From positions 128,001 through 192,000 of the forward strand of contig OZ245015.1 of the NCBI GenBank assembly GCA_965223705.1: a DNA stretch of 64,000 nt, read 5' to 3'. Origin of the DNA: Myxococcota bacterium (lineage in GTDB: Bacteria; Myxococcota_A; UBA9160; UBA6930). The notes below the pieces were generated by a model. That model searched no databases. It was not told the DNA's origin and saw only the letters and a list, made by a program, of their open reading frames with translations. The position numbers and the translations under genes are program-made. Positions 32,638 to 49,265 of the stretch are shown in pieces. How positions within the stretch are numbered: the first letter of the stretch is position 1; each line of letters starts with the position of its first letter.

Positions 32638-33369
32638 CTACGGCTCCGGGTGTGCGAAGCGTCCATGCTTGAGGAACTCGAGAACTTGAAAACCGGCGAC
32701 CTTCGATCGCATGATGAAGGTGTGCGAAGCGGAGATCGCAATAAAGTCGGTCATCCCGGGCAGCTTGGTGCTCTGCACGGACACAGTTCCATCGTTTTCT
32801 CCCGGAACGAAGAGTGATCCCAAGGGATTGATGCTCCTGGTACCCGCGATGACACCGAGTTCGAAGTTCGGTGGGGGCAGCCGATTCGGAAGGCTTTGCT
32901 CTTCGGTGCCGAGCTGACTCGCGGTGGGGCCGAGTGCCCATCGGAAGGCTGCGGAGTCGAGGAGGTCGACCAGTTCGCTGCCGTGGTTAGGCGGCGCCAG
33001 CATGACCACGCGTCCGAGCGTTTGCACCTCGTGCGTAGCGACGTAAGCGCGGACCAAGATCCCTCCGAGCGAGTGCGTCACAAAGTGAAGACGCGGTGCG
33101 GCTTCGCAACACTCGAGCACTCGTTTGTGGAGGTAACCCCCGAGCTCACCGGGGCCGAGATCGGTCGACGGGTAAGAGACGTTGTGAACCGCATAGCCAG
33201 CTTCGGACAACATGGAAGCCAGTGGACGCATCGCGCGGCTCGACCGCCCGAGGCCGTGGAGAAGCACCACCGATTCGGCGCGCGCCTCGGCATCGGAAGC
33301 CTGAGCCTTTGCGCCCAGCACACACGAGATGGCCAAGAACATCCCGAAGATGGAGACGGCTCGTCGCAA
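32638..33369 (-). CDS. Alpha/beta hydrolase (lipase-like)
   Basis: VLLHGL, THSLGG, APPNHGS, NDGTVS. Confidence 0.87.
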   Translation of the reverse strand: MRRAVSIFGMFLAISCVLGAKAQASDAEARAESVVLLHGLGRSSRAMRPLASMLSEAGYAVHNVSYPSTDLGPGELGGYLHKRVLECCEAAPRLHFVTHSLGGILVRAYVATHEVQTLGRVVMLAPPNHGSELVDLLDSAAFRWALGPTASQLGTEEQSLPNRLPPPNFELGVIAGTRSINPLGSLFVPGENDGTVSVQSTKLPGMTDFIAISASHTFIMRSKVAGFQVLEFLKHGRFAHPEP

Positions 33370-33434
33370 ACCGCTACGGATCCTGCAGGTTCGAGTCGCC
33401 CACTGTATCGCGCGAGATCGACGCCGAAGGCACG

Positions 33435-33803
33435 CTAAACCCGAGGGTCATCGTCATTCGAATGCTCGGTGTCTGCGGGCGAGAGATACATCTCTTTGGT
33501 TCTTAAGAGAATATGGTGGCGGTGCCAGAGCCCTTGCGGCACGACGAGGCAGGAGCCTCCCTCGAGTCTGACTCGATCAGATGGCTGCCCCAGAGCACTG
33601 GGCAGGATCTCGATTTCTACACACCCCTCGATGACGTGTAGTAACTCCTCCGAGTTTGGATGCATCTCCCAGGGACCGGGACCGCCAGCCTCAGACCAGA
33701 AGACTCCAATGTGTCCGGTGCCGAAAGAAGCTTGGGTCGCAAACTCCAGCTCGGGAAGTTTGGACACTTCCTTGTCGGGATTGAACACTTGGTATTGGGT
33801 CAT
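33435..33803 (-). CDS. Cupin domain protein
   Basis: WEMHP..EE, VVPQGLWH. Confidence 0.82.
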   Translation of the reverse strand: MTQYQVFNPDKEVSKLPELEFATQASFGTGHIGVFWSEAGGPGPWEMHPNSEELLHVIEGCVEIEILPSALGQPSDRVRLEGGSCLVVPQGLWHRHHILLRTKEMYLSPADTEHSNDDDPRV

Positions 33804-33851
33804 TGCGCGATCCACTGAACCATAGGTTAGGCGGAACCACGTCCATCGAGA

Positions 33852-33873
33852 AAGGCGGGTCCACTGCAGCCGC
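33852..33873 (-). repeat. attC remnant (one arm)
   Basis: AAGGCGGGTCCACTGCAGCCGC is identical to the array attC arm and lies just after the stop of ORF 33885-34292; R'' box lost. Confidence 0.7.
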
Positions 33874-33884
33874 CGGACATAGCC

Positions 33885-34292
33885 CTATCGGGTGTCCGGT
33901 GAGCGCGATACCGGCGCGGGACGCGCCCAAAGCAGAGCGACCGCGGGGATGCCGAATAGCAAAAGCTGCCAAAGACCTGGACCCCACCCACCGCCGGACG
34001 GGCTGGTGAGATTCCAGATGAGGTGGCTGACCGCCACGTAGAAAGCGTAGACGGACGCCCAGGGCCAGACCCAGGGGCGAACGGACCAGAACGCCCACGC
34101 CGCGGCGGCGAAGATCGCCCAGTGAAGAGGCGCGGTGAGCCGCGCGAGTGCTCCGCGAAGCTCGAACCCGAACCACACTTCCGTGTCGCGCACATGGGGG
34201 ACGAACACATCTCGAGCGATGAGGAAGATGAGGGTGACGGTGCAGAAAGCGGAAAGAACCGTCGCCCACCAAGGTCTCTCTACAGCATCCAC
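33885..34292 (-). CDS. Membrane protein, probable former cassette gene
   Basis: Four TMs; followed by the attC remnant. Confidence 0.65.
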   Translation of the reverse strand: MDAVERPWWATVLSAFCTVTLIFLIARDVFVPHVRDTEVWFGFELRGALARLTAPLHWAIFAAAAWAFWSVRPWVWPWASVYAFYVAVSHLIWNLTSPSGGGWGPGLWQLLLFGIPAVALLWARPAPVSRSPDTR

Positions 34293-34380
34293 GCCCGACT
34301 ACCAACTTGTGCGAGCCATCCGTTTCGCAAGTAGAGGTCGTCTCCATCTCGTCCTCCGCACACGCAAATAGCGGCCCGGC

Positions 34381-34878
34381 CTAGCGCGTAGGACGATAGA
34401 GAACTGCGAAGCTGAAGCCGAACGCAGCGACGATCAGCGCAAGAAGCAAACCCAAGACAAAAAATCCCGATCCCGAGGGCATGGGCCAACCGACTGCATT
34501 CGAGAGTTGCAAGGCGATGTTAAGCAACGTCAGAGCAAACACGGTGTGTAACGCCGTGCGGGGCGGGCGAGCGCCCTGACCACGCGACACTTTTTGCACC
34601 CGCAAGAGGAAGAAGACGAAAAAGGCAAGGACCGCCGCGAACAGAACGACGCTGGAATACCGCCAACTCGTGGAGCCCTCAACCCCGAACTGTAACAGCA
34701 GCGACGGTACGAACGCGATCGTCGCAGTGCCCACCCCGAGAAACAGGACACCTGCGAATCGCCAGCGATCGATTGCTACCAGTCCATCGCGTTGAGAGAA
34801 CGCGACAACAACACCGGCGAAGCCAGCCAAGGTCAGAGCCAATTCGGCGATCGTTAGGACTGCGCTCGCTGCGTCCAT
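34381..34878 (-). CDS. Membrane protein
   Basis: IAELALTLAGFAGVVVAF, about five TMs. Confidence 0.65.
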   Translation of the reverse strand: MDAASAVLTIAELALTLAGFAGVVVAFSQRDGLVAIDRWRFAGVLFLGVGTATIAFVPSLLLQFGVEGSTSWRYSSVVLFAAVLAFFVFFLLRVQKVSRGQGARPPRTALHTVFALTLLNIALQLSNAVGWPMPSGSGFFVLGLLLALIVAAFGFSFAVLYRPTR

Positions 34879-35625
34879 CTCTAGTCGACCGTCCGCTTAA
34901 CATCGAAACTCGGCGCCGGGTTGGGCGTCATTGCCTTCAACTCTACTCAACGAATCGACGTAGGCAATAAAATCCAGATGGTAGACGTTGTGTTTGTGAT
35001 CCTCCCAGAACCGTTGGTAGCCTCGAGCGCGCCAAGGCGGCCCTGTTCGACCGCCATAAGGCCAGCGGTCACTGTCCCAATTACCAACGCCACCCAAAGC
35101 GACACGCCCCAGGGATTTTGCGACTCAAACACCGCGAAGAAACCCAGTGCCGTCGCTGCAATTTCCGCGACGAGTCCAAGTTGATCGAGAGCCGCTTCCG
35201 ACATTCCACACTCCGCCGACATCGCTGGTAAGCCGATGAGTACAAGCCACGTACTCATCGTCCCTTCAACGCGGAGTTTATCCAGGCCCCTGCGTTGGAA
35301 TCGATGTCTCGAGCCACACCCTCGATTGGACCCGTAATCCCGAGGCAGCTCTGAAGGTGCCTCTGCGTCGAAAAGACGGAACGCTGTCTTTGCATCCTGC
35401 TCGTGAAATATTCCTACATGATGCCTTCGGCTTGGCGGTCGGCGTGTTGGCGATAGTTGGCCCCGCCTGCGCTGTAGGCGAAGATAACGGGCTGGTCTCT
35501 CCATAGGCAGACGCACTGGACCTGCCGGATCAATGATGTCGTCTGAATCACTCGCGAGCGGCATGACTGGCGCTGCGAAGACTCGGTCGAGGCTCGCGCG
35601 TGCTGTTTGATCAACGGGAAGCCTC

Positions 35626-36246
35626 CTATGGCGCCCTCTGAGCAACGATGAATCGGACCGGGTGCGGACAGAAGGCGGTCTCAAGGATCACGAAGTCAGC
35701 ACTCGTGATGTGGTCTTCGATCTCTGTCGCCTTTAGATAATCGAGAGGGGGCGCAAGTCCGAACAGCTTCATCACCGAGATACCGATGGGCACGAGGCGG
35801 TTCATTTCTCCGACACAGGGTGTCTTCGAGATGAAGAATCCCCCGGGCTTGAGGCGCTCTCGAATCTCGAACAGGCCGCCCGGGATGTCCCCGACCACGT
35901 GCAAGCTGTTGAAGGCTGTGATGACGTCGAAGGGCCCGCGGTCCAAGCCCGCGTCAAATAGCGTTGCCTGCTCGAAGTGGACGTTGTCGACGTTCTCGGC
36001 TGACGCCTTCTCGACGCCGATCTCGACCATGCGAGACGAAATGTCGGTGGCGGTGATCTGTTCAACGCTGGATGCGAGCAGGAGCGCAGTCGTCCCGGTT
36101 CCACAGCCGATCTCCAGAACGTGATCGCCCGCGGACAGGTACTTTCGGGTTCGGTCCAGGCCCTGGTCGTAGCTCGCCTGATCCTTGATCGGCTTCTTCG
36201 AGTAGGCGTCGGCGTGGCGGTCCCAGAAGCGTGCGGCTTTGGTCAT
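35626..36246 (-). CDS. Class I SAM methyltransferase
   Basis: FWDRHA..Y, VLEIGCGTG, LKPGGFFISKT. Confidence 0.88.
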   Translation of the reverse strand: MTKAARFWDRHADAYSKKPIKDQASYDQGLDRTRKYLSAGDHVLEIGCGTGTTALLLASSVEQITATDISSRMVEIGVEKASAENVDNVHFEQATLFDAGLDRGPFDVITAFNSLHVVGDIPGGLFEIRERLKPGGFFISKTPCVGEMNRLVPIGISVMKLFGLAPPLDYLKATEIEDHITSADFVILETAFCPHPVRFIVAQRAP

Positions 36247-36336
36247 GCGACTTTCTCCTGCGCGCTCATACGGGTACTCGTTGGGTGCCACCCATTCGCT
36301 CCTTCACAGTCCGCAAACGCCCGGCGACGACGGGTC

Positions 36337-36466
36337 CGCCAACGGAGTTGCGGCTCAGTGGGTCCGCCGACCTGAGGGCGAGATTCTGCCGATACCGCTG
36401 GTTAAGGCACAAGACTAACGAACTAGAGAAGAGCAAAGGCGGGTCCGCTGTAGCCGCTGGTTAGAC
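36337..36466 (-). repeat. attC of cassette 14 (terminal)
   Basis: R'' GTCTAAC ... R' GTTGGCG, imperfect palindrome. Confidence 0.88.
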
Positions 36467-37003
36467 GGCAAGCTCCAACTCGCCGCCCGCTATCACCTCG
36501 GGCGTCGTCGCGTCTCCGGGTCCAAACTCGAGGGCGCCAGAAGCCAGGTACAAGACAACATTGCCTGGCGAGTAGAGGTGCCAGATTGGATCGCCCGGCC
36601 CAAAGTCGGCATACCTCTGCGTTTAAACCACAAAGCCGAATTCAAACTTGAATATGAATTCACCCCGTGTCGGGGAAGCTCCGACCGTCTCGAGCTTTGC
36701 ACCATCGAGTCTAGATAAGGCCCGGGATATGGTCTCGTTGTCCGATTCAGAGTGCGCGAGTTCCGTAGATTGCTCGCGAAGCGACCAATCACATTGCTCA
36801 ATCCACAGATGGTGATCACCGCGAACTGTGACCAAACGCCTGCGCAGGTACTCGCGACGAGAGTCGGGAACAGGTTCGCGAATTTCTAGATGAGGCTGCC
36901 CGGAGTCGAATGTGATGAAGGAGCTGTAACCCCGTTGCGCGTTCCAGCAAGGGAGCCCAGATAAGCTGCCGAAACTCGCGCTCAGGAGGTCCCTGGCATC
37001 CAA
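36461..37003 (-). pseudogene. Cassette 14 gene with in-frame TAA at 36623-36625
   Basis: Frame continues past the stop to the TAA inside R'' (GTCTAAC). Confidence 0.7.
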
Positions 37004-37021
37004 AGTACGCCCTTGCCTGCC

Positions 37022-37157
37022 GTCTAACGGAGATGGCGCTCAGCTGCGAGCCACAGTGCCTCCGTGGTTCGAGCAAAGCACCAGAGTTACAATGCCAGAG
37101 CGTAAAAGAACCCGGTTTGACAAGCTGTGGCTCCTCAGCTGCAGCGCCTTGTTAGAC
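37022..37157 (-). repeat. attC of cassette 13 (divergent sequence type)
   Basis: GTCTAAC-AAGGC-GCTGCAGC ... GCTGAGC-N9-GTTAGAC. Confidence 0.88.
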
Positions 37158-37184
37158 GGTGTGCTCCCGGGGTCAGAAGGAACG

Positions 37185-37421
37185 ATGGGCAAAGCGGGAC
37201 AGAAGGTGCTGGACGAAGCGCTGCAACTCGAACTCTCAGAACGAGCGGAGCTTGCGGCGGAACTGCTCGCAAGCCTCGACGGCGAACCGGACGAGGAGGC
37301 CGAGGCGGCTTGGGCTGACGAAATCAAGCGCCGGCTCACCCGCGCTCGATCTGGCGCAGATGAGGGAAGGCCCTGGCCAGCCGTTCGAGATGCGGTCAAG
37401 GACGCATTGAACAACAGGTGA
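37185..37421 (+). CDS. Addiction module antitoxin component (cassette 13, inverted)
   Basis: EAL.L...ERAELA..LL.SLD...AW..EI.RR motif. Confidence 0.85.
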   Translation: MGKAGQKVLDEALQLELSERAELAAELLASLDGEPDEEAEAAWADEIKRRLTRARSGADEGRPWPAVRDAVKDALNNR

Positions 37422-37732
37422 CTCCTAGCGTTCGCATCAGTGAAGAGGCTGAAGCCGAGGTGGCTGAGTCGGCTCGCTGGTACGAGACAAACCGAGCGAA
37501 CTTGGGCGCAGAGTTCCTCGAGGCAGTTGACCTGGCAGTAGATCGAGCCGCAACGAACCCCGCGGCGGGTTCACCGGTGCCGGGTGTTGAAGACGCGGCT
37601 GTTCGCCGGTGGCCGGTACGCCGTTTCCCGTATCACGTTGTGTACGTCGAGCTCCCCGACCGTCTTCAGATTCTCGCTGTGGCGCACGATCGCCGACGCC
37701 CCGGATATTGGATCGGTCGGCTGCCAAGCTGA
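37418..37732 (+). CDS. RelE/ParE family toxin (cassette 13)
   Basis: WYE....LG.EF, RRFPY.VVY, ILAVAH.RRRPGYW. Confidence 0.88.
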   Translation: MTPSVRISEEAEAEVAESARWYETNRANLGAEFLEAVDLAVDRAATNPAAGSPVPGVEDAAVRRWPVRRFPYHVVYVELPDRLQILAVAHDRRRPGYWIGRLPS

Positions 37733-37880
37733 CGCCCGAACATCCGTCTAACGGAGTTGCGGCTCAGTGGCCCGCCGACCTAATGGCGAGATTCCGCCGA
37801 CACCGCTGGTAAGGGACCAAGACTAACGAACTAGAACCGAGCTAAGGCGGATCCACTGCAGCCGCTCTTATGATGCGATC

Positions 37881-38080
37881 CGTGATGAAATGAAGCGGCC
37901 GATGAGCACAAGCCACGTGCCCACCGGCCTTCATAGGGAGCGGTAGGCCGAAAGCCAAGAGGTCCCTTGCGAGACCGTTAACAAGCTCGGGTCACCGTTC
38001 CCGTTGCCGCAGCGAAGCTCGAACGATCGCTTGGGCCGCCCGGAGGCGAGCCCGTATTTGAGAGCCCGAGTTCGTTGTAC
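37881..38080 (+). ncRNA. Predicted bridge RNA (copy 1); ends approximate
   Basis: 5' hairpin 37890-37934, target loop 37936-38002, donor loop 38010-38077 with guides matching IS ends and attC. Confidence 0.8.
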
Positions 38081-38093
38081 CGGGAAGTTTATC

Positions 38094-39009
<916 letters not shown>

Positions 39010-39035
39010 GCGTTGACTTCCAACACGATCGCTTG

Positions 39036-39572
39036 TTAGGTGGCAGGTCCGCTTTGCGAGAACGCACAGCCAAAGCGCTCCGCGTTGGCCTCCGAGAAGA
39101 ACACGGTGACCGCGTCGTCTGATACGAGTGTGGCCTCGTCGGAATACTCTCCGAGTGCCAAGAAAACAGGCTCGTGCCCGACGAGACTGAGTCGGATTCC
39201 GCAGGGGTACCAATGATCCGAGCGCTCGCTTGGGTACCAGCGAAGGGCGGTTGAGGCGATGTGTTTGCCAATGATGTCCGGCCACGGAGCCGTGCCCGAG
39301 ACCGGCCACCGCGCGGTCTCCGGGCGCAGCTCCGATGAGAGGTCGCTGGGCAGGACTTTGAGACCAGTGTCTGAAGGAACGTCCCAGATAACGGAGACGA
39401 CAGCGCCGCTTCCGAGGTGGAGCTCGACTCCGTAGTCGACGGAATGTCTATCGGAGCAGACGAACTCTGGCTTGCGGCTTTCGTACGCAATCTCTCGGTA
39501 GGTGACGTCCCGAATCGAGTCGCCGCGCGTCGACTCAAGAAGCTCGAGTGCTGATCTGGCCGGCTCCTTCAC
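39036..39572 (-). CDS. Cassette 12 hypothetical protein
   Basis: AGGAG RBS + GTG; stop inside R''. Confidence 0.75.
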   Translation of the reverse strand: MKEPARSALELLESTRGDSIRDVTYREIAYESRKPEFVCSDRHSVDYGVELHLGSGAVVSVIWDVPSDTGLKVLPSDLSSELRPETARWPVSGTAPWPDIIGKHIASTALRWYPSERSDHWYPCGIRLSLVGHEPVFLALGEYSDEATLVSDDAVTVFFSEANAERFGCAFSQSGPAT

Positions 39573-39583
39573 GGTCTCCTGCC

Positions 39584-39713
39584 GCCTAACGGAGTTGCGG
39601 CTCAGTGGGCCCGCCGACCTAATGGCGAGATTCCGCCGATGCCGCTGGTAAGGGCACAAGACTAACGAACTAGGACTGAGCTAAGGCGGGTCCACTGCAG
39701 CCGCTGGTTAGAC
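39584..39713 (-). repeat. attC of cassette 11
   Basis: 130 bp, identical to 46434-46563. Confidence 0.92.
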
Positions 39714-39720
39714 GGCGCCA

Positions 39721-40113
39721 CTACTCGGGCGGTTGCTCCAGTAGTGCGAGAAGCCCACACGCTACAACAACCAAAACCGCTACAGCAGCTGCAAAACCGT
39801 AGGCGAACCGAATGCCCCCGCCGGCCGATCCTTCTAGCGCCATAGCGATACCGATTACAGCGATAGCAGCGGCAGAGACCCCGGGCAGGAGGCGTCTCGC
39901 GAGACGAGAACGCTTGGATCGCGCGAGCAGCTGGGCCTGCGTCAGGCCTTCTCGGGCGAAGACCAGTGGGGCGATAAAGATAGTTCCGGCTCCAAGAGAC
40001 GCGAGCACGACCAGGAATGGAGCGCCTGTCAGAAGGCCACCGACGGCTAATGCGAACATTAAGCAGCCGACGAAGCCGGCGAACGCGATCGCTGTTCGTA
40101 AGAGTGCGTTCAA
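39721..40113 (-). CDS. Cassette 11 membrane protein (duplicate of cassette 3)
   Basis: Four TMs; same protein as 46571-46963. Confidence 0.75.
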   Translation of the reverse strand: MNALLRTAIAFAGFVGCLMFALAVGGLLTGAPFLVVLASLGAGTIFIAPLVFAREGLTQAQLLARSKRSRLARRLLPGVSAAAIAVIGIAMALEGSAGGGIRFAYGFAAAVAVLVVVACGLLALLEQPPE

Positions 40114-40125
40114 CTCGTTGCGTCC

Positions 40126-40255
40126 GTCTAACGGAGTTGCGGCTCAGCGGTCCCGCCACACTAAGGGCAAGGGTCCGCCGGTACCGCTGGTTAAGCTCAA
40201 AACCTAACGAACTAGAAAAGCGCTGTGGCGGGTCCGCTGCAGCCGCTGGTTAGAC
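40126..40255 (-). repeat. attC of cassette 10
   Basis: GTCTAAC...GTTAGAC, subtype 2. Confidence 0.92.
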
Positions 40256-40717
40256 AGCGTGCTCGTTTAGCCAGGCGAGGAGGGGGCTGTCGGGCGAGGT
40301 ATGGGCGGCGACTACGTCCTTAAATCGCCCGGTGTCTTCCAGAATGAGTGGGACCCATATTGGCGAACCACCCGAAACAGCAAAGACCCGCAGACAGGGG
40401 CACAACGGAATGTTCAAGAGAGAGACGTGGGAAATTTCGGACCACGCGATATCGCGCCGACGGCACCATGTATCGAAACCGCTTAAGGCCGATTCGTCTG
40501 TCTGAGCGAACGGCAACTTTTGAAAGATGAAGCCTATGCAGTAGCAATAGACGAGAACTACCCCAACCGTGACGGAGATTACCAGTACGGTTGCTAGGTC
40601 GGGGCGCCAGGCAATCGCGCTCGCTAAGCCGGCAGCTCCTCCGATTAACCCGAGCGAGAAGCTCCACCACCAGGAGACAGGGTGGTTCTCTGCCGGTAAC
40701 GACGCCATAGCCACCAC
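40250..40717 (-). CDS. Cassette 10 membrane-anchored hypothetical protein
   Basis: Two TMs plus a soluble domain; stop inside R''. Confidence 0.72.
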   Translation of the reverse strand: MVAMASLPAENHPVSWWWSFSLGLIGGAAGLASAIAWRPDLATVLVISVTVGVVLVYCYCIGFIFQKLPFAQTDESALSGFDTWCRRRDIAWSEISHVSLLNIPLCPCLRVFAVSGGSPIWVPLILEDTGRFKDVVAAHTSPDSPLLAWLNEHAV

Positions 40718-40759
40718 CTCGGTAGGTCGGCGAACTTTCTTAAGGGCTCGACAACGTCT

Positions 40760-40890
40760 GTCTAACGGACTTGCGGCTCAGCGGTCCCGCCACACTTAGT
40801 GGCAAGGGTCCGCCGGGCACGCTGGTTAGGCCCAAAACCTAACGAACTAGACGAGCGCTGTGGCGGGTCCGCTGCAGCCGCTTGTTGGGT
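40760..40890 (-). repeat. attC of cassette 9
   Basis: ACCCAAC...GTTAGAC, subtype 2. Confidence 0.92.
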
Positions 40891-40902
40891 GGCGACGCCT
40901 CG

Positions 40903-41256
40903 CTATTTCGTTTGAGGGGCGATGACCTTGTAGGAAGGGCCAAGACCGAAGAATCTCGATGTCTCGAGAACCCGCACTCGAGTACCTGTTGGGTACTCGC
41001 CTATCGCGCCGACGCTAGCTGTGACAACACGGCCGCTCTCGAGAGCGACATTCGCTTTGGACACGTAGCCGGCTTGAGTATCGACGCCTCGGGCGGCCTC
41101 TACGGTTCCCGACAACTCGCGCGTAGATCGGCCGAGACCAAGAACAACCATGAGAAAGAGGACGAAGCCAGCGAACGCGACACCCTTCGCCCAAGAGACG
41201 ACTTGTCGCCTCCGACGAAGACGTGCTTCCTCTTCGAGAACCTCATAGGCCGACAT
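40903..41256 (-). CDS. Cassette 9 single-TM hypothetical protein
   Basis: ORF fills the cassette. Confidence 0.7.
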   Translation of the reverse strand: MSAYEVLEEEARLRRRRQVVSWAKGVAFAGFVLFLMVVLGLGRSTRELSGTVEAARGVDTQAGYVSKANVALESGRVVTASVGAIGEYPTGTRVRVLETSRFFGLGPSYKVIAPQTK

Positions 41257-41268
41257 GTTGCACCGTCC

Positions 41269-41397
41269 GCCCAACGGAGTTGCGGCTCAGTGGCCCGCCG
41301 ACCTAATGGCAAGGTTCCGCCGACACCGCTGGTAAGGCCACAAGACTAACGAACTAGAACCGAGCTAAGGCGGGTCCACTGCAGCCGCTGGTTAGGC
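41269..41397 (-). repeat. attC of cassette 8
   Basis: GCCTAAC...GTTGGGC. Confidence 0.92.
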
Positions 41398-41404
41398 GGA
41401 GGGC

Positions 41405-41656
41405 TCAGGATGACCTGACAAAGAGCGTCTTCACGAGCCGGCACAGGAGGATCAAGACGGCTGTCCAGAACGCGAGGTTCAGTAGGACTGCGATTACGAC
41501 GCCATCTGTTCGATGGCCTGGATCTTCAATGAGGAACGACACGATAAAAAGACCGGGCTCAACTACCCCGGGCCAAAGCCCGAGAAAAGTGAACAGGCAA
41601 GAAGCCAAGAAAGACAGAAGAATTGGCAAGAACCCGATTGGAGCCAACCTCCGCAC
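41405..41656 (-). CDS. Cassette 8 small membrane protein
   Basis: Hydrophobic 83-aa ORF. Confidence 0.62.
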   Translation of the reverse strand: MRRLAPIGFLPILLSFLASCLFTFLGLWPGVVEPGLFIVSFLIEDPGHRTDGVVIAVLLNLAFWTAVLILLCRLVKTLFVRSS

Positions 41657-41847
41657 CCGTTCACCTTCCTAAGCATGGAAGCCTGGCCGCTGCTCCGAGC
41701 GACCGACTTCCGCCTAACGGAGTTGCGGCTCAGTGGGCCCGCCGACCTGAAGGCAGGATTCCGCCGATACCGCTGGTAAGGCCTCAAGACTAACGAACTA
41801 GAACCGAGCTAAGGCGGATCCACTGCAGCCGCTCTTATGATGCGATC

Positions 41848-42984
<1,137 letters not shown>

Positions 42985-43019
42985 GCGTTGACTTCCAACA
43001 CGATCGCTTGTTAGGCCGC

Positions 43020-43277
43020 TCACTGAGAAGCAGACGCCTCGCCCCGGAGAAGACCTGCGATGCTCAGATCTTCGTCGACATCGGGCCAGTGGATTCCCAC
43101 GCCTTCGCCAAGGAGTTCGAAGTTCTGGCGCTGTGCGGGGGTGGCCCTCAGCAACCGAGGGAACCACGCGAGAGGAGCAGAAATGCGACGGCCGTCGGCA
43201 AGCAGAACAACCAGCTCGTCGTCCGTTACGTCAACTTCCTTTGCGCGGGCATCAACGCTCGGCAGCGAAGAACTCAT
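43020..43277 (-). CDS. DUF2442 protein, putative antitoxin (cassette 7)
   Basis: L.DGR.IS.PL.WFPRL..AT..QR, GIHWPD.DEDLSI.GLL. Confidence 0.88.
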   Translation of the reverse strand: MSSSLPSVDARAKEVDVTDDELVVLLADGRRISAPLAWFPRLLRATPAQRQNFELLGEGVGIHWPDVDEDLSIAGLLRGEASASQ

Positions 43278-43494
43278 TCCAGGCCTCCTCGAATTGTTCG
43301 CATCGCTCTTCGACCAACTCTTGAATCCGTCGCAGCTCGTGCGCCGGAAAGCCTGACGAAGAGGCTAGCGCCAATGGCCGCAGCCAGTACTTGGCGAGAG
43401 AACGGTCTCGCTGAACATGGATGTGTACGGGCTCTAACCCTTCGTTTCCAAAGAAGAAGAACCGGTACGGGCCGACCCGCGCAACCGTAGGCAT
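43252..43494 (-). CDS. DUF4160 protein, putative toxin (cassette 7)
   Basis: MPTV.R.GPYRFFF..NE..EP.HIHV, AKYWL, WNEFF. Confidence 0.88.
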   Translation of the reverse strand: MPTVARVGPYRFFFFGNEGLEPVHIHVQRDRSLAKYWLRPLALASSSGFPAHELRRIQELVEERCEQFEEAWNEFFAAER

Positions 43495-43537
43495 TGCTCG
43501 AGTGTAACGAGGTGATCTTACGACCCTAGGTCCGTCG

Positions 43538-43666
43538 GCCTAACGGAGTTGCGGCTCAGTGGTCCCGCCGATCTGAAGGCGAGATTCCGCCGGTACGCTG
43601 GTTAGGCCACAACACTAACGAACTAGGACCGCGCTAAGGCGGGTCCACTGCAGCCGCTTGTTGGGC
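43538..43666 (-). repeat. attC of cassette 6
   Basis: GCCCAAC...GTTAGGC. Confidence 0.92.
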
Positions 43667-43671
43667 CGCAC

Positions 43672-43962
43672 CTAGCTCAACGGTGGCAGCAACTGACTCG
43701 CCCTGAACACGGTGACTACCTCAAGCCGCTCTTCAGTAGAAACGCGGTACACAAGTCGGAAGGGCCTGACGATGATTTCTCGGAGGTCGGGGTCGCCTAC
43801 TTCCGGAACGACTCGACCAACCCGCGGGAAGTCGCGTGCGCGTTCAGCTGCTGCGATGAGACGCTGGACCACAAGCGATGCCCAGCGGGGAGAGTCTTCG
43901 GAGATGCGTGCATGTATCGTCTCAAGGTCTCGGAGCGACCGTGGCGACCATATGGTTCTCAC
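43672..43962 (-). CDS. RelE/ParE family toxin (cassette 6)
   Basis: IWS.....DL..I...I..DSP, FP..GR.VPE, REII...R..YR. Confidence 0.88.
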   Translation of the reverse strand: MRTIWSPRSLRDLETIHARISEDSPRWASLVVQRLIAAAERARDFPRVGRVVPEVGDPDLREIIVRPFRLVYRVSTEERLEVVTVFRASQLLPPLS

Positions 43963-44141
43963 GCGCTAAAGCGCCGTTTGATCTCTTCGTGGGGGATGCC
44001 TTCGCCTGAATCGAGTTCAGCAAGGCCTTCCTCTACGCGGGCTAGAAACACGAGACGCTCAATCGCATCGTCGATGGTGGCGTCCGCGGGAAGATCTTGC
44101 AGCGCGTCGAGAATGCGTTGCTTTGAACTGGACTCGGCCAT
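43959..44141 (-). CDS. Antitoxin (cassette 6)
   Basis: LP.DAT.DD..ERL....VEEGL..LD.G..I.HEE; overlaps the toxin start. Confidence 0.82.
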   Translation of the reverse strand: MAESSSKQRILDALQDLPADATIDDAIERLVFLARVEEGLAELDSGEGIPHEEIKRRFSA

Positions 44142-44314
44142 CGCTCAAAGGTAGCAGACCGCATTTGCTCGATTGTCGGCCCAACGGAGATGCGGCTCAG
44201 CGGTCCCGCCACACTTAATGGCAAGATTCCGCCGGGCCGCTGGCTGAGCCCAAAACCTAACGAACTAGAAAAGCGCTGTGGCGGGTCCGCTGTAGCCGCT
44301 CTTATGATGCGATC

Positions 44315-45962
<1,648 letters not shown>

Positions 45963-45981
45963 GAAACGACCCCGACGGTCT

Positions 45982-46109
45982 GTCTAACGGAGTTGCGGCT
46001 CAGTGGCCCGCCGACCTAGTGGCGAGATTCCGCCGATACCGCTGGTAAGGGCACAGATTAACGAACTGGAACCGAGCTAAGGCGGGTCCACTGCAGCCGC
46101 TGGTTAGGC
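45982..46109 (-). repeat. attC of cassette 4
   Basis: GCCTAAC...GTTAGAC. Confidence 0.92.
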
Positions 46110-46412
46110 AGGAGCCCGTAACGACAGGCCGCAAAAGCTGCAGGTTGGGCGGCCGACCCACGCGCCGAGCCACCTCTTGCCCCTGACCCCGAAGAAGTAC
46201 TTCTCGCACTTAGGACAGCGCGCATTGGATAGGCCGAACTGCTCAACGAACGTAAACAGCCCGCAGCCAAAGCCCACTACGAATACTGGCGCGGCAACTA
46301 TCTCGGGCAGCACAAAGGCCGAGAAAAGGCAGCCAGTGAAAACCCATCCGCACAACCGGTAGCGATTCCATCTTCGCCTGAGAATCTCGAGCGCTTCAGA
46401 TTGGCTGTCCAA
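46104..46412 (-). CDS. Cassette 4 membrane protein with C-terminal zinc ribbon
   Basis: Two TMs, CPKC...CSFC; stop inside R''. Confidence 0.72.
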   Translation of the reverse strand: MDSQSEALEILRRRWNRYRLCGWVFTGCLFSAFVLPEIVAAPVFVVGFGCGLFTFVEQFGLSNARCPKCEKYFFGVRGKRWLGAWVGRPTCSFCGLSLRAPA

Positions 46413-46433
46413 GCTTGGGAACGCCTGCTGTCT

Positions 46434-46563
46434 GCCTAACGGAGTTGCGGCTCAGTGGGCCCGCCGACCTAATGGCGAGATTCCGCCGATGCCGCTGGTA
46501 AGGGCACAAGACTAACGAACTAGGACTGAGCTAAGGCGGGTCCACTGCAGCCGCTGGTTAGAC
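46434..46563 (-). repeat. attC of cassette 3
   Basis: Identical to 39584-39713. Confidence 0.92.
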
Positions 46564-46570
46564 GGCGCCA

Positions 46571-46963
46571 CTACTCGGGCGGTTGCTCCAGTAGTGCGAG
46601 AAGCCCACACGCTACAACAACCAAAACCGCTACAGCAGCTGCAAAACCGTAGGCGAACCGAATGCCCCCGCCGGCCGATCCTTCTAGCGCCATAGCGATA
46701 CCGATTACAGCGATAGCAGCGGCAGAGACCCCGGGCAGGAGGCGTCTCGCGAGACGAGAACGCTTGGATCGCGCGAGCAGCTGGGCCTGCGTCAGGCCTT
46801 CTCGGGCGAAGACCAGTGGGGCGATAAAGATAGTTCCGGCTCCAAGAGACGCGAGCACGACCAGGAATGGAGCGCCTGTCAGAAGGCCACCGACGGCTAA
46901 TGCGAACATTAAGCAGCCGACGAAGCCGGCGAACGCGATCGCTGTTCGTAAGAGTGCGTTCAA
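46571..46963 (-). CDS. Cassette 3 membrane protein
   Basis: Same protein as 39721-40113. Confidence 0.75.
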   Translation of the reverse strand: MNALLRTAIAFAGFVGCLMFALAVGGLLTGAPFLVVLASLGAGTIFIAPLVFAREGLTQAQLLARSKRSRLARRLLPGVSAAAIAVIGIAMALEGSAGGGIRFAYGFAAAVAVLVVVACGLLALLEQPPE

Positions 46964-46975
46964 CTCGTTGCGTCC

Positions 46976-47105
46976 GTCTAACGGAGATGCGGCTCAGTGG
47001 GCCCGCCGACCTAAAGGCGAGGTTCCGCCGACACCGCTGGTAAGGGCACAAGACTAACGAACTAGAACCGAGCTAAGGCGGGTCCACTGCAGCCGCTGGT
47101 TAGGC
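46976..47105 (-). repeat. attC of cassette 2
   Basis: GCCTAAC...GTTAGAC. Confidence 0.92.
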
Positions 47106-47522
47106 GGCATACGACCTCGAAGGACGTAGCGAGCGAAAAGCCAACCGAGGCCAAACTGCTGCGAGGCCTGGGAGAAGTGAATAGAGATAGGGGCTGCCCG
47201 TTTGATAGACGAGCGGAAACGTACAGACAGCTGCGACGACGGCGGGCACAAGGAAGGGCGCAACGCCGGGCTTCTCGAGAGAAACCGATCGTCTGGAAGC
47301 AACCCACCAGACGCTAACAGCTAGGAAGCACCCAACGACGCAGAGCGTGACGCCAAGAAGAGTGAACACGACAAACAGTTCAACAAGCTTGCCTGCTGAC
47401 GCCTCGAACTGCCCGTTCGATAGAAGCCAGAATGCGCGCAGAAGCGCTACTGCAGCTCCGAATACGGCTGGGGTGGCCAGCCCTGACCACAGAAACCACC
47501 GAATGGCTGAGCCGACTGACAT
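47100..47522 (-). CDS. Cassette 2 membrane protein
   Basis: Four TMs; ATG just after R'; stop inside R''. Confidence 0.75.
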   Translation of the reverse strand: MSVGSAIRWFLWSGLATPAVFGAAVALLRAFWLLSNGQFEASAGKLVELFVVFTLLGVTLCVVGCFLAVSVWWVASRRSVSLEKPGVAPFLVPAVVAAVCTFPLVYQTGSPYLYSLLPGLAAVWPRLAFRSLRPSRSYAA

Positions 47523-47526
47523 GTTC

Positions 47527-47652
47527 GCCTAACGGAGTTGCGGCTCAGTGGCTCGACCTGATGGCGAGAGTCCGCCGATACCGCTGGTAAGGGCACAAGA
47601 CTAACGAACTAGAACCGAGCTAAGGCGGGTCCACTGCAGCCGCTTGTTAGGC
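47527..47652 (-). repeat. attC of cassette 1
   Basis: GCCTAAC...GTTAGGC, 126 bp. Confidence 0.92.
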
Positions 47653-48027
47653 GGCTCGAGCCCCTATACCAGGCAACACCATGATCGCTTGGGCCGCCCG
47701 GAGGCCGGAGACCACGACAGCGACAACTCCGAGGCAAGCCAAGACGATTGCGATGGGATTCAGCTTGAAGAGGCCCCAAGAGAAGAACCAGCAGAAGGGC
47801 TGCCACGCCTAAGGGACGAATAGATGATTGGGCAGGTCCGGAGATGCCAAGACGATTGCCGCTCGATAGTCAGTGATTGAGAAGCGGACGATCCACACTA
47901 CGCCCACGAACGCGGGCAACAACGCGGATGCTCGAACAAGAAAAGCGATTACGGGATGGAGCTGTGCGGGGCGAGTGAGCTGCGAGAGCAGCGAATCAGG
48001 TGTGGAGGAGTCCAGTTCTTTCGCCAT
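47647..48027 (-). pseudogene. Cassette 1 membrane-protein gene interrupted by TAG at 47809-47811
   Basis: Frame continues past the stop (hydrophobic) to the TAA inside R''. Confidence 0.55.
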
Positions 48028-48037
48028 CGCCTCTACC

Positions 48038-48070
48038 GCCTAACTACTAATTCGACGGCACCCACTGCCG
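48038..48070 (-). other. attI site (R box GTTAGGC at 48038-48044)
   Basis: GTTRRRY just before the first cassette ATG, complementary to that cassette's R''; no attC body upstream; distal extent uncertain. Confidence 0.75.
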
Positions 48071-48080
48071 CCTGTTCTGC

Positions 48081-48089
48081 AGCATATCA
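48081..48089 (-). promoter_or_regulatory. Candidate cassette promoter Pc (extended -10 TGaTATGCT)
   Basis: AT-rich patch about 40 bp upstream of attI, facing the array; no good -35. Confidence 0.35.
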
Positions 48090-48244
48090 TTCATCTACAC
48101 ACGCAGCGTTTGTTGCGGTTTGTGAGGCGGGACGCGGGTTTTGGGGTCGAGGATAGGCGGTTGTCGTGTTACAACACGGCAGTATCGGCATCCCGGGCCG
48201 GCGCGGAGATAGCTCACCCTTACTGTGGTTCGCTTGCACTACGT

Positions 48245-48260
48245 GTGAACAGATGTTCAC
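48245..48260. promoter_or_regulatory. Putative LexA (SOS) operator GTGAAC-AGAT-GTTCAC
   Basis: Perfect palindrome with GAAC-N4-GTTC core, 18 bp before the intI ATG. Confidence 0.6.
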
Positions 48261-48278
48261 GTGGGGCGGGGGGTGAGA

Positions 48279-49265
48279 ATGTCGTCTTTCGAAGACCGCA
48301 AACCGCGGAAGTTGCTCGATCAGCTGCGGGACAAGGCTCGGGTGCTTCACTACAGCGCTCGCACCGAAGAATCCTACGTGGCGTGGGTGCGGCGCTTCAT
48401 TCTGTTCCACAACAAGCGGCATCCACGCGAGATGGGGGGCGAGGAGATCGCGGCCTTCCTCACGCACCTCGCGGTTCACCGGAGGGTCGCGGCGCCGACG
48501 CAGAACCAGGCGTTGCAGGCGATCCTCTTTCTCTACCGCGAGGTCCTGCGGATGAGCCCGCCGCGTGTGTCCGAAGTGGTGCGGGCGCGGCGGCCGGTGC
48601 GCATGCCGGTCGTGCTGTCGCGGGGCGAAGTGGCGCGGCTGCTCGCAGCGCTCGAGGGGAGCCCGAAGCTCGTCGCGAGCGTACTCTACGGGTCGGGGCT
48701 CCGGTTGATGGAGTGTCTGACGCTGCGCGTTCAAGATCTTGACCTCGAGCGCTGCGAGATCCGGGTTCGCGACGGGAAAGGCGGCGGCGACCGGGTGACG
48801 GTGTTGCCGGAAACCCTGATTGCGCCGCTGCGCGAGCACCTCGCGACAGTCGAGCGCAAGCACGCGAGCGATCTGTCGGATGGCCTCGGCGAGGTCCCGC
48901 TACCGGGCGCTCTGGCCCGGAAATACCGCAATGCATCGCGTGAGTTTCGCTGGCAGTGGGCGTTTCCGGCGGCGAGCCGTTGGAAGAATAAGCGCACGGC
49001 TGAGGAAGGACGGCACCATCTGCACGAATCGGCCGTGCAGCGCCGGATCCGGAGCGCTGCGCGATCTGCTGGAATCGCGAAACGGGCGACGGCGCACACG
49101 CTGCGGCACAGTTTTGCGACGCACCTGCTCGAATCTGGGTCGGACATTCGAACAGTGCAAGAGCTCCTGGGGCACCGGAACGTGCGCACGACGATGATCT
49201 ATACGCATGTGCTCAACCGAGGCGGGCTCGGAGTGACGAGTCCGCTCGACGGGGTCGCGCGATGA
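48279..49265 (+). CDS. intI: Integron integrase
   Basis: HYS.RTE..Y..W, YGSGLR, integron-specific RHHLHES insert, [24 protein letters not shown]. Confidence 0.97.

What the first reader, a model, noticed from the sequence alone, without database searches (positions are those of the whole stretch)
37936..38002. Asymmetric target loop whose right guide predicts which attC sites are occupied
Seen: the right guide pairs 8 nt including the conserved GTTA of R''. The position-equivalent left guide AAAGCCAAG (37951-37959) matches the target GCAGCCGCT only at AGCC and misses the CT core. All 3 occupied sites reconstruct to GCTTGTTA. Of 11 empty attCs, 7 have GCTGGTTA, 2 GCTTGTTG, 1 CCTTGTTA, and only the attI-proximal site (47642-47649) is a perfect match. 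Known: in IS621 the left guide carries most of the pairing. Inference: recognition has shifted to the invariant R box, possibly on folded single-stranded attC where the core lies in the unpaired spacer.
Basis: partly seen in the sequence, partly recalled or inferred. Interest (0 to 1): 0.78.

Follow-up and report, generated by a model that had tools for sequence, protein, structure and literature searches.

The report
Integron-targeting bridge RNA, shortened left guide
This is the targeting loop of a small guide RNA that steers a jumping gene into integron recombination sites; the mechanism is a known one, but the element belongs to an apparently undescribed lineage and has seemingly spread although its left guide matches the target at only four bases.

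Summary
The sequence facts hold: three copies of an IS621-type IS110 element sit in attC sites, and the tally of empty sites is right. The interpretation needs three corrections.
(1) The right guide is 7 nt. The eighth base is the handshake base that pairs with the donor (C in 58 of 58 homologous sites, whatever the target). So 5 of 14 attCs match perfectly (7 with a wobble), and occupancy alone is weak evidence (p 0.03-0.10).
(2) Recognition has not left the left guide. Across 58 homologous sites it co-varies with the target at positions 3-7 (244 of 290 matches; shuffled 169 ± 7).
(3) Double-stranded DNA fits better than folded attC (23 versus 4 of 34 discriminating positions), and the core C is paired in all 14 folds.
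What looks new is a left-end bridge-RNA clade that reached the attC R'' end separately from the IS1111-attC group, and a rule. When target position 7 is G, the left guide is almost never perfect next to the core (2 of 31, versus 20 of 27). This element is an extreme case, with 3 mismatches. Earlier unchecked notes of this scan describe attC-targeting IS110s on other DNA.

The parts
37936..38002 (+). Target-binding loop (TBL) of the bridge RNA, copy 1 (identical in copies 2 and 3 at 41903-41969 and 44370-44436)
   Evidence: Fold; alignment with homologues; copies identical here
37951..37959 (+). Left target guide; matches target positions 3-6 only, mismatched at 1-2 and 7-9
   Evidence: this column co-varies with the target in homologues
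37961..37976 (+). Inner stem-loop of the TBL
   Evidence: conserved in homologues (it was part of the search pattern)
37979..37985 (+). Right target guide, 7 nt, complementary to core CT plus TGTTA (target positions 8-14)
   Evidence: 28 perfect and 4 wobble-only of 36 homologous right junctions
37986..37987 (+). TBL handshake dinucleotide; the first base is complementary to donor G7 and is not a target guide
   Evidence: C in 58 of 58 sites although target position 7 is G in only 31; handshake concept from PMC11208158 passages
37890..37934 (+). 5' stem-loop of the bridge RNA
   Evidence: Fold
38023..38031 (+). Left donor guide, 9 of 9 match to the element's right end plus core
   Evidence: Sequence
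38056..38066 (+). Right donor guide (9 nt read as pairing to 7 donor bases with a 2-nt bulge) and DBL handshake CC
   Evidence: read by eye against the discontiguous RDG described in PMC11208160 passage; inferred
37867..39031 (+). IS110 copy 1, between core CT 37865-37866 and 39032-39033; transposase 38094-39009 frameshifted by an 8-bp deletion near 38577
41834..43006 (+). IS110 copy 2, intact; transposase 42061-42984 (307 aa; D8, E52, D94, D97, S232)
   Evidence: Pfam PF01548 and PF02371; ISCro4 and IS621 structures are the only PDB hits; motifs
44301..45473 (+). IS110 copy 3, intact, 100% identical to copy 2
37869..37874 (+). -10 box TATGAT; with the -35 box TTGACT at 39013-39018 it forms a 17-bp-spaced promoter across the circle junction
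   Evidence: Junction printed; promoter activity inferred, not shown
37746..37866 (.). Left part of the attC interrupted by copy 1 (its R'' end follows the IS at 39034-39041); one of 14 attC sites between 36338 and 47652
47527..47652 (.). Integrase-proximal attC, the only intact AGCC-N-CTTGTTA site in the assembly; predicted next target
37022..37157 (.). Empty attC with a perfect 7-nt right-guide match but only 3 left-guide matches
48261..49265 (+). Tyrosine recombinase read as the integron integrase; the cassette array runs on the minus strand away from it
   Evidence: PF00589 and PF13495; IntI identity inferred from context

Best explanation
The stretch is the target-binding loop of an IS621-type bridge RNA, made from a promoter that forms at the junction of the excised circle (inferred). 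The DEDD recombinase uses it to open double-stranded attC DNA just inside the R'' box. The 7-nt right guide holds the strand reading CTTGTTA. The left guide holds the opposite strand, here through a 4-nt seed (AGCC, positions 3-6). Together they read about 11 bases, which picks out T10-type attC sites and, in this assembly, no other intact site. The G10 attCs are probably skipped because of a mismatch beside the cut. The broken 3' end of the left guide is not an adaptation to folded attC. It is an extreme form of a clade-wide pattern: when target position 7 is G, a perfect left guide would be complementary to the right-guide core plus handshake base of the same loop, and lineages carry one to three mismatches there. 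The most likely reason is to keep the loop open or to balance the extra pairing before strand exchange. Shown by sequence comparison: element anatomy, guide registers, co-variation and the G7 pattern. Inferred: expression, activity with this guide, and the reason for the G7 pattern.
For: Anatomy matches IS621: long left end, short right end, CT core, both loops, catalytic residues. The left guide equals the target top strand at positions 3-7 in 244 of 290 cells; shuffled 169 ± 7, maximum 198 of 10000. Outside the target columns themselves, the three top-scoring leader columns are left-guide positions 4-6. Right guide perfect or wobble in 32 of 36 junctions, with matched changes at positions 10, 12 and 14 (L085/L106, L130, L132, L210). 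Duplex beats hairpin 23 to 4, with 7 ties. G7 targets: positions 7-9 perfect in 2 of 31; others 20 of 27. The G7 label changes 10 times on a tree of 47 of the 58 rows, with at least 7 changes forced by well-supported branches. L210, re-aimed at a site without the attC motif but with G7, also has a position-7 mismatch. A fourth right junction, absent from the assembly, also reads TGTTAG (same sample, possibly the source).
Against: In IS621, pairing to both core strands is 'strongly preferred' (PMC11208160 section 8). In ISPpu10, the left-guide position next to the core tolerates no mismatch (bioRxiv 10.64898/2026.03.19.712850). Activity with three mismatches is therefore unexpected and untested. 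The self-pairing idea has only weak folding support: the mean probability rises from 0.01 to 0.16 over 25 G7 loops, reaches 0.15 in only 7 of them, and moves only from 0.000 to 0.024 for this element. This element's own donor loop has a perfect guide opposite the same complementary triplet. Most hairpin-versus-duplex positions are position 9, where U may simply be inherited; this element itself scores for the hairpin there (a G:T wobble). Two loci below the score cut (L132, L152) have a position-7 guide base that fits the hairpin arm. Kin are not independent, and metagenome contigs can join ends of different copies. No RNA data.
Confidence: 0.68

Rival explanations
1. One reading: the target is the folded single-stranded attC bottom strand, the right guide does the recognition, and the left guide is obsolete.
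For: 36 of 36 parsed junctions obey the right guide at position 10. Left-guide matching starts at position 3, just past the extrahelical base (positions 1 and 2 match in 4 and 8 of 58, against 9 and 21 of 31 in non-attC relatives). T9 and T10 are only partly paired in the folds (0.04-0.81). Four positions favour the hairpin, plus L132 and L152. Near-identical elements occur at sites with several left-guide mismatches (L134, L118).
Against: The left guide co-varies with the target. Duplex is better at 23 of 34 positions. C8 is paired in all 14 folds, and in most folds the GTTA that the right guide must bind is paired too. A clade member is re-aimed at a site without the attC motif (L210). The solved mechanism uses a double-stranded target and a Holliday junction (PMC11208158 passages).
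Confidence: 0.07
2. Duplex targeting with structural help, as reported for ISPpu10: guide pairing sets the address, and attC's palindrome captures the displaced strand or pre-melts the site, which lets a 4-nt left seed suffice. Not exclusive of the best explanation.
For: ISPpu10 shows a stringent right guide, a tolerant left guide, and a target stem-loop whose removal cuts integration to about 44%. An attC 5' arm was found for 38 of 58 sites at score 11 or more. The targets of the non-attC relatives look palindromic by eye (not tested).
Against: The partner arm lies about 100-130 nt away, not adjacent as in ISPpu10. A full attC hairpin would also sequester the right target. L210 lacks the attC motif.
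Confidence: 0.15
3. This left guide is decayed. The copies were moved in trans by the RNA of a sister element with an intact guide, or were homogenised after insertion.
For: A deleted relic of a related element lies at 35210-35332. Bridge RNA works in trans (PMC11208160 section 8). A related loop appears among loose ends in the same sample. Three mismatches is rare (2 of 58).
Against: No other member of this clade is in the assembly, and the relic lacks both loops. The three copies are identical but for one 8-bp deletion and have three different right junctions. Mismatches at 7-9 recur in many lineages with different letters.
Confidence: 0.1

Closest known systems
IS621 bridge recombinase and bridge RNA (IS110 group; PMC11208160, PMC11208158, PMC13626964); ISCro4
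   Same: Left-end RNA with 5' stem-loop, target loop and donor loop; CT core; junction promoter; DEDD plus serine catalytic set; handshake bases; discontiguous right donor guide. ISCro4 and IS621 are the only solved-structure hits (E 2e-37, 2e-33).
   Different: Natural right guide is 7 nt (4 in IS621, though longer ones are reported in orthologues). Left guide uses positions 3-9 at best, here 3-6. The core is not paired by the left guide. Target is attC.
IS1111-attC group (ISKpn4, ISPst6, ISPa21, ISPa25) and their seekRNAs (PMC11187229 passages; Tetu and Holmes 2008 and Post and Hall 2009 seen only as citations)
   Same: [quoted passage not shown]
   Different: Their non-coding region lies downstream of the transposase and their enzymes are 330-350 aa. 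Here the RNA is upstream and the enzyme is 307 aa, in the size range closer to the IS492/IS621/Piv branch. Convergence is inferred from anatomy; no joint tree was built, and the exact insertion base was not compared.
ISPpu10 (bioRxiv 10.64898/2026.03.19.712850)
   Same: IS110-group element with a stringent right guide and a mismatch-tolerant left guide, aimed at a palindromic repeat.
   Different: It tolerates distal but not core-proximal left-guide mismatches, the opposite of this clade's G7 members. Its target is a REP with an adjacent short stem-loop. The text has no mention of attC.
Group IIC-attC introns (PMC3001079 passages)
   Same: Insert into the attC bottom strand, opposite to cassette transcription.
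   Different: Retroelements with unrelated chemistry; a convergent user of the same landing region.

Membership tests
IS110 group (IS621-like) bridge recombinase | DEDD RuvC-like domain plus Tnp domain with catalytic serine | tested here: met
   PF01548 and PF02371 above cut-off; D8, E52, D94, D97, S232
IS110 group (IS621-like) bridge recombinase | Long non-coding left end, short right end | tested here: met
   227 nt before the start codon, 22 nt between stop codon and core
IS110 group (IS621-like) bridge recombinase | Two-loop RNA whose guides match target and donor around a CT core | tested here: met
   target-loop co-variation across 58 sites
IS110 group (IS621-like) bridge recombinase | Left target guide pairs the core on the bottom strand | tested here: not met
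   0 of 2 core positions match in this element; positions 8 and 9 match in 51 and 42 of 58 clade sites. A reported preference of IS621, not a classifier of the group.
IS110 group (IS621-like) bridge recombinase | Promoter formed at the circle junction | tested here: met
   TTGACT, 17 bp, TATGAT in the joined ends; sequence only, activity not shown
IS110 group (IS621-like) bridge recombinase | RNA expressed, bound and required for insertion | not testable with these tools
   No RNA holder listed; needs bench work
IS1111-attC group | Non-coding region and guide RNA downstream of the transposase | tested here: not met
   RNA is upstream
IS1111-attC group | Sub-terminal inverted repeats of 7-17 bp | tested here: inconclusive
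   An imperfect repeat of about 10-14 bp aligns between the two ends in many clade members; no chance control was run
IS1111-attC group | Insertion at one end of attC, antisense to the array | tested here: met
   3 of 3 copies; 33 of 36 homologous right junctions continue with GTT
IS1111-attC group | Monophyly with ISKpn4, ISPst6 and ISPa21 transposases | not tested
   Those sequences were not fetched

The most novel reading that the evidence does not exclude
This clade runs a different bridge-RNA logic from IS621. Left-guide pairing over the core is dispensable and is selected against whenever the handshake base can pair with the target. In this element it has shrunk to a 4-nt seed that works only because attC's own palindrome or its weakly paired T9-T10 spot pre-opens the site. 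That would make it a structure-gated, right-guide-dominant recombinase that reads integron sites.
Probability: 0.15. Interest if true: 0.75.

Novelty: new variant of a known kind. Interest (0 to 1): 0.45.

Why it matters
Published rules from IS621 and ISPpu10 say that left-guide pairing next to the CT core is needed. Here dozens of natural elements break it in a predictable way, tied to the handshake base, and this one has apparently spread to three or four sites with none of it. If bench tests confirm this, it gives a design rule for programmable bridge recombinases: avoid a left guide complementary to the right-guide core plus handshake base. It also shows integron attC sites being colonised by a second RNA-guided lineage that splits R'' from the rest of the site and so should lock cassettes in place (inferred). 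The single-stranded-target idea, which would have been the bigger surprise, is not supported.

Tried and rejected
- Alternative register or second left guide elsewhere in the leader: best 7-mer is 5 of 7, and none lies in the target loop. The column scan ranks the named guide first among leader columns. Resemblance of the 5' hairpin loop to the target in some homologues does not co-vary; rejected.
- 8-nt right guide: rejected.
- Handshake co-variation in the donor loop with target position 7: none seen; it is CC in both G7 and C7 groups (the first attempt failed on a faulty pattern).
- A loose pattern over 401 genomes gave noise, with the reversed control also hitting widely; not used.
- Base rate of T10 among empty attCs in metagenome loci: only 7 sites found, 6 of them T; too few. 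In related genomes T10 is the common form, so '36 of 36' is less telling than the two G10 cases.
- Rfam: no family in 33000-48500.
- No RNA holder listed. No circle-junction joint was listed in the contigs laid; contigs cannot show absence. X5 gave no contigs and X6 one.
- Searches had pattern and offset errors, corrected; the motif counts and the probabilities stand.
- A look-up of earlier findings by protein sequence returned nothing.

Full report
Setting. The finding lies in the left end of an insertion sequence present three times in a chromosomal integron array. The assembly G000 (4.56 Mb, 2 contigs) holds only these three copies plus a short relic. The transposase has both IS110 Pfam domains and the residues D8, E52, D94, D97 and S232. 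Its only solved relatives are ISCro4 and IS621. Copies 2 and 3 are identical; copy 1 has an 8-bp frameshifting deletion. The leader folds into a 5' hairpin, a target loop and a donor loop (z = -3.31). The joined ends give TTGACT-17-TATGAT. Each copy sits between core CT and TGTTA, one base before the GTT of R'', antisense to the cassettes.

Observation. The three right junctions join three different cassette genes, so they look like separate insertions. The left halves of sites 1 and 2 are identical over the 48 nt before the core, including a variant seen in no other attC, so left-side evidence may be only two events. Contigs of two runs from one sample, possibly the source, show a fourth right junction that also reads TGTTAG and is not in the assembly.

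Comparative set. A pattern that fixes the inner stem and the AG of the right guide, but leaves the other guide and handshake bases free, found 63 metagenome loci. With five genome loci added, 68 were parsed. Five were dropped (3 without a guide anchor, 1 at a contig end, 1 without a left junction), and 63 collapsed to 58 unique sites with 24 left-guide sequences. For one sub-lineage (4 unique sites) I shifted the guide register by one base after seeing the data. An attC 5' arm was found for 38 of 58 sites, and 33 of 36 parsed right junctions continue with GTT. A DNA search of 225 genomes of the class matched 19, counting G000, and added further members. So this is a clade, not a one-off.

Right guide. 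In IS621 the two bases after the right-guide core are handshake guides that pair with donor position 7 after strand exchange (PMC11208158 and PMC13626964 passages). Here that base is C in 58 of 58 sites, while target position 7 is G in 31, C in 22, T in 3 and A in 2; the donor has G7. In non-attC relatives (46 of 79 loci parsed, 31 unique) it is C in 30 of 31 while the target has C7 in 31 of 31 (the right guide was located there by best match, so its match counts are partly circular, and about five rows are mis-registered). The guide is therefore 7 nt, and the empty attC at 37022 is a perfect right-guide site. Perfect sites are 5 of 14 (p = 0.027), or 7 of 14 with the wobble seen in L084 and L087 (p = 0.096). 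The stronger evidence that position 10 matters is natural re-aiming: guide and site change together in L085/L106 and L210 (position 10), L130 (12) and L132 (14). Against: 4 of 36 junctions have a hard mismatch.

Left guide. Matches per position 1-9 are 4, 8, 55, 48, 54, 51, 36, 51 and 42 of 58. Positions 3-7 give 244 of 290 against 169 ± 7 shuffled. The left guide is thus in use and in the duplex register. In this genome the 7-nt right-guide word occurs 31 times, three of them the guide genes themselves; adding the AGCC seed leaves one intact site, the integrase-proximal attC. Four plus seven bases equals the 11-base address of wild-type IS621.

Hairpin or duplex. Because attC is palindromic, only positions where the far arm is not complementary can tell the two apart. 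In the 30 sites with a confident arm there were 34 such positions: duplex better 23, hairpin better 4, tie 7. Most are position 9, and this element is one of the four (a wobble). L132 and L152, below the cut, lean to the hairpin at position 7. In DNA folds of all 14 attCs, C8 is paired at 0.98-1.0 and T9 and position 10 at 0.04-0.81, so the core is not in an open spacer. L210 is re-aimed at a site without the attC motif. Duplex recognition is favoured; help from structure, as in ISPpu10 (abstract, passages and section 7 read), is not excluded.

Why the left guide is broken. Mismatches at positions 7-9 track the target's position 7: perfect in 2 of 31 G7 sites and 20 of 27 others (Fisher p = 8e-8, overstated by kinship; four G7 rows are off-target insertions of C7-guided elements, leaving 2 of 27). 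The G7 state changes 10 times, at least 7 forced, on a tree of 47 of 58 rows built without the target guides; several branches are long. Lineages use different substitutions. With G7, a perfect guide would be complementary to the right-guide core plus handshake base. Folding supports this only weakly (0.01 to 0.16 on average over 25 loops; 0.000 to 0.024 here). The donor loop shows a similar lean: perfect in 8 of 54 in this clade, where its handshake base is mostly C, and 16 of 45 in relatives, where it is G. No site has both left guides perfect at 7-9 (0 of 54). Position-9 mismatches also occur in about 11 of 31 non-attC relatives with C7, so tolerance there is general. The mechanism behind the G7 pattern is inferred, not shown.

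Comparison with what is known. [quoted passage not shown] Those carry the RNA downstream; this clade carries it upstream like IS621. Six library searches listed no paper whose title or abstract describes a left-end IS110 clade in attC or the G7 pattern. The library lacks most subscription papers. I did not see ISfinder or any supplement; Supplementary Data 2 and Table 5 of PMC11208160 may hold members. For PMC11208160 I read passages and section 8. Tetu and Holmes 2008 and Post and Hall 2009 were seen only as citations. Earlier notes of this scan describe attC-targeting IS110s in other genomes; they are unchecked and were read after my reading was formed.

Verdict. A real, well-defined bridge-RNA target loop. 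The shift to single-stranded, R-box-only recognition is not supported. The lasting points are an apparently undescribed attC-seeking IS110-group clade and a testable rule for core-proximal left-guide mismatches, of which this element is an extreme. Novelty: new variant of a known kind. Interest 0.45.

Noticed in passing
window 35210-35332: Relic of a related IS110: an attC-internal piece, the 5' hairpin and the start of the transposase, with both guide loops deleted.
   Followed up: partly
window 47683-47705: 23 nt identical to the left donor guide and stem of the bridge RNA (E 7e-4 genome-wide), about 30 nt from the integrase-proximal attC, inside a reading frame of the first cassette. Unexplained; could be chance or a scar.
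   Followed up: partly
window 36338-47652, most attC sites: The ~130-nt attCs look like two attC-like units fused, with an inner copy of both end motifs, and have a 9-nt R-L spacer on one arm against 5 on the other; the extrahelical base is mostly C.
   Followed up: no
window 41843-41863 and 42985-43006; homologous loci: Imperfect sub-terminal inverted repeat of about 10-14 bp between the two IS ends across the clade, longer than the 2-3 bp reported for the IS110 group; no chance control.
   Followed up: partly
window 39584-40125 and 46434-46975: One cassette is present twice with identical sequence.
   Followed up: no
window 37173-37732, 43020-43494, 43672-43962: Toxin-antitoxin-type cassettes: addiction-module antitoxin with ParE, DUF4160 with DUF2442, and a second ParE.
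   Followed up: partly
window 47660-48027 (minus strand): The first cassette's reading frame is interrupted by one stop codon at 47809 and runs on to the attC.
   Followed up: no
L002-L080: Alphaproteobacterial relatives (46-52% identity) have natural 7-nt right guides and appear to target REP-like palindromes.
   Followed up: partly
L157, L159 right junctions: Core reads CG instead of CT at the right junction.
   Followed up: no
runs X1, X2 on window 41856-43014: IS contig depth is about five times that of unique flanks, and a fourth right junction is present, hinting at more copies than assembled; depth is not a copy number.
   Followed up: partly
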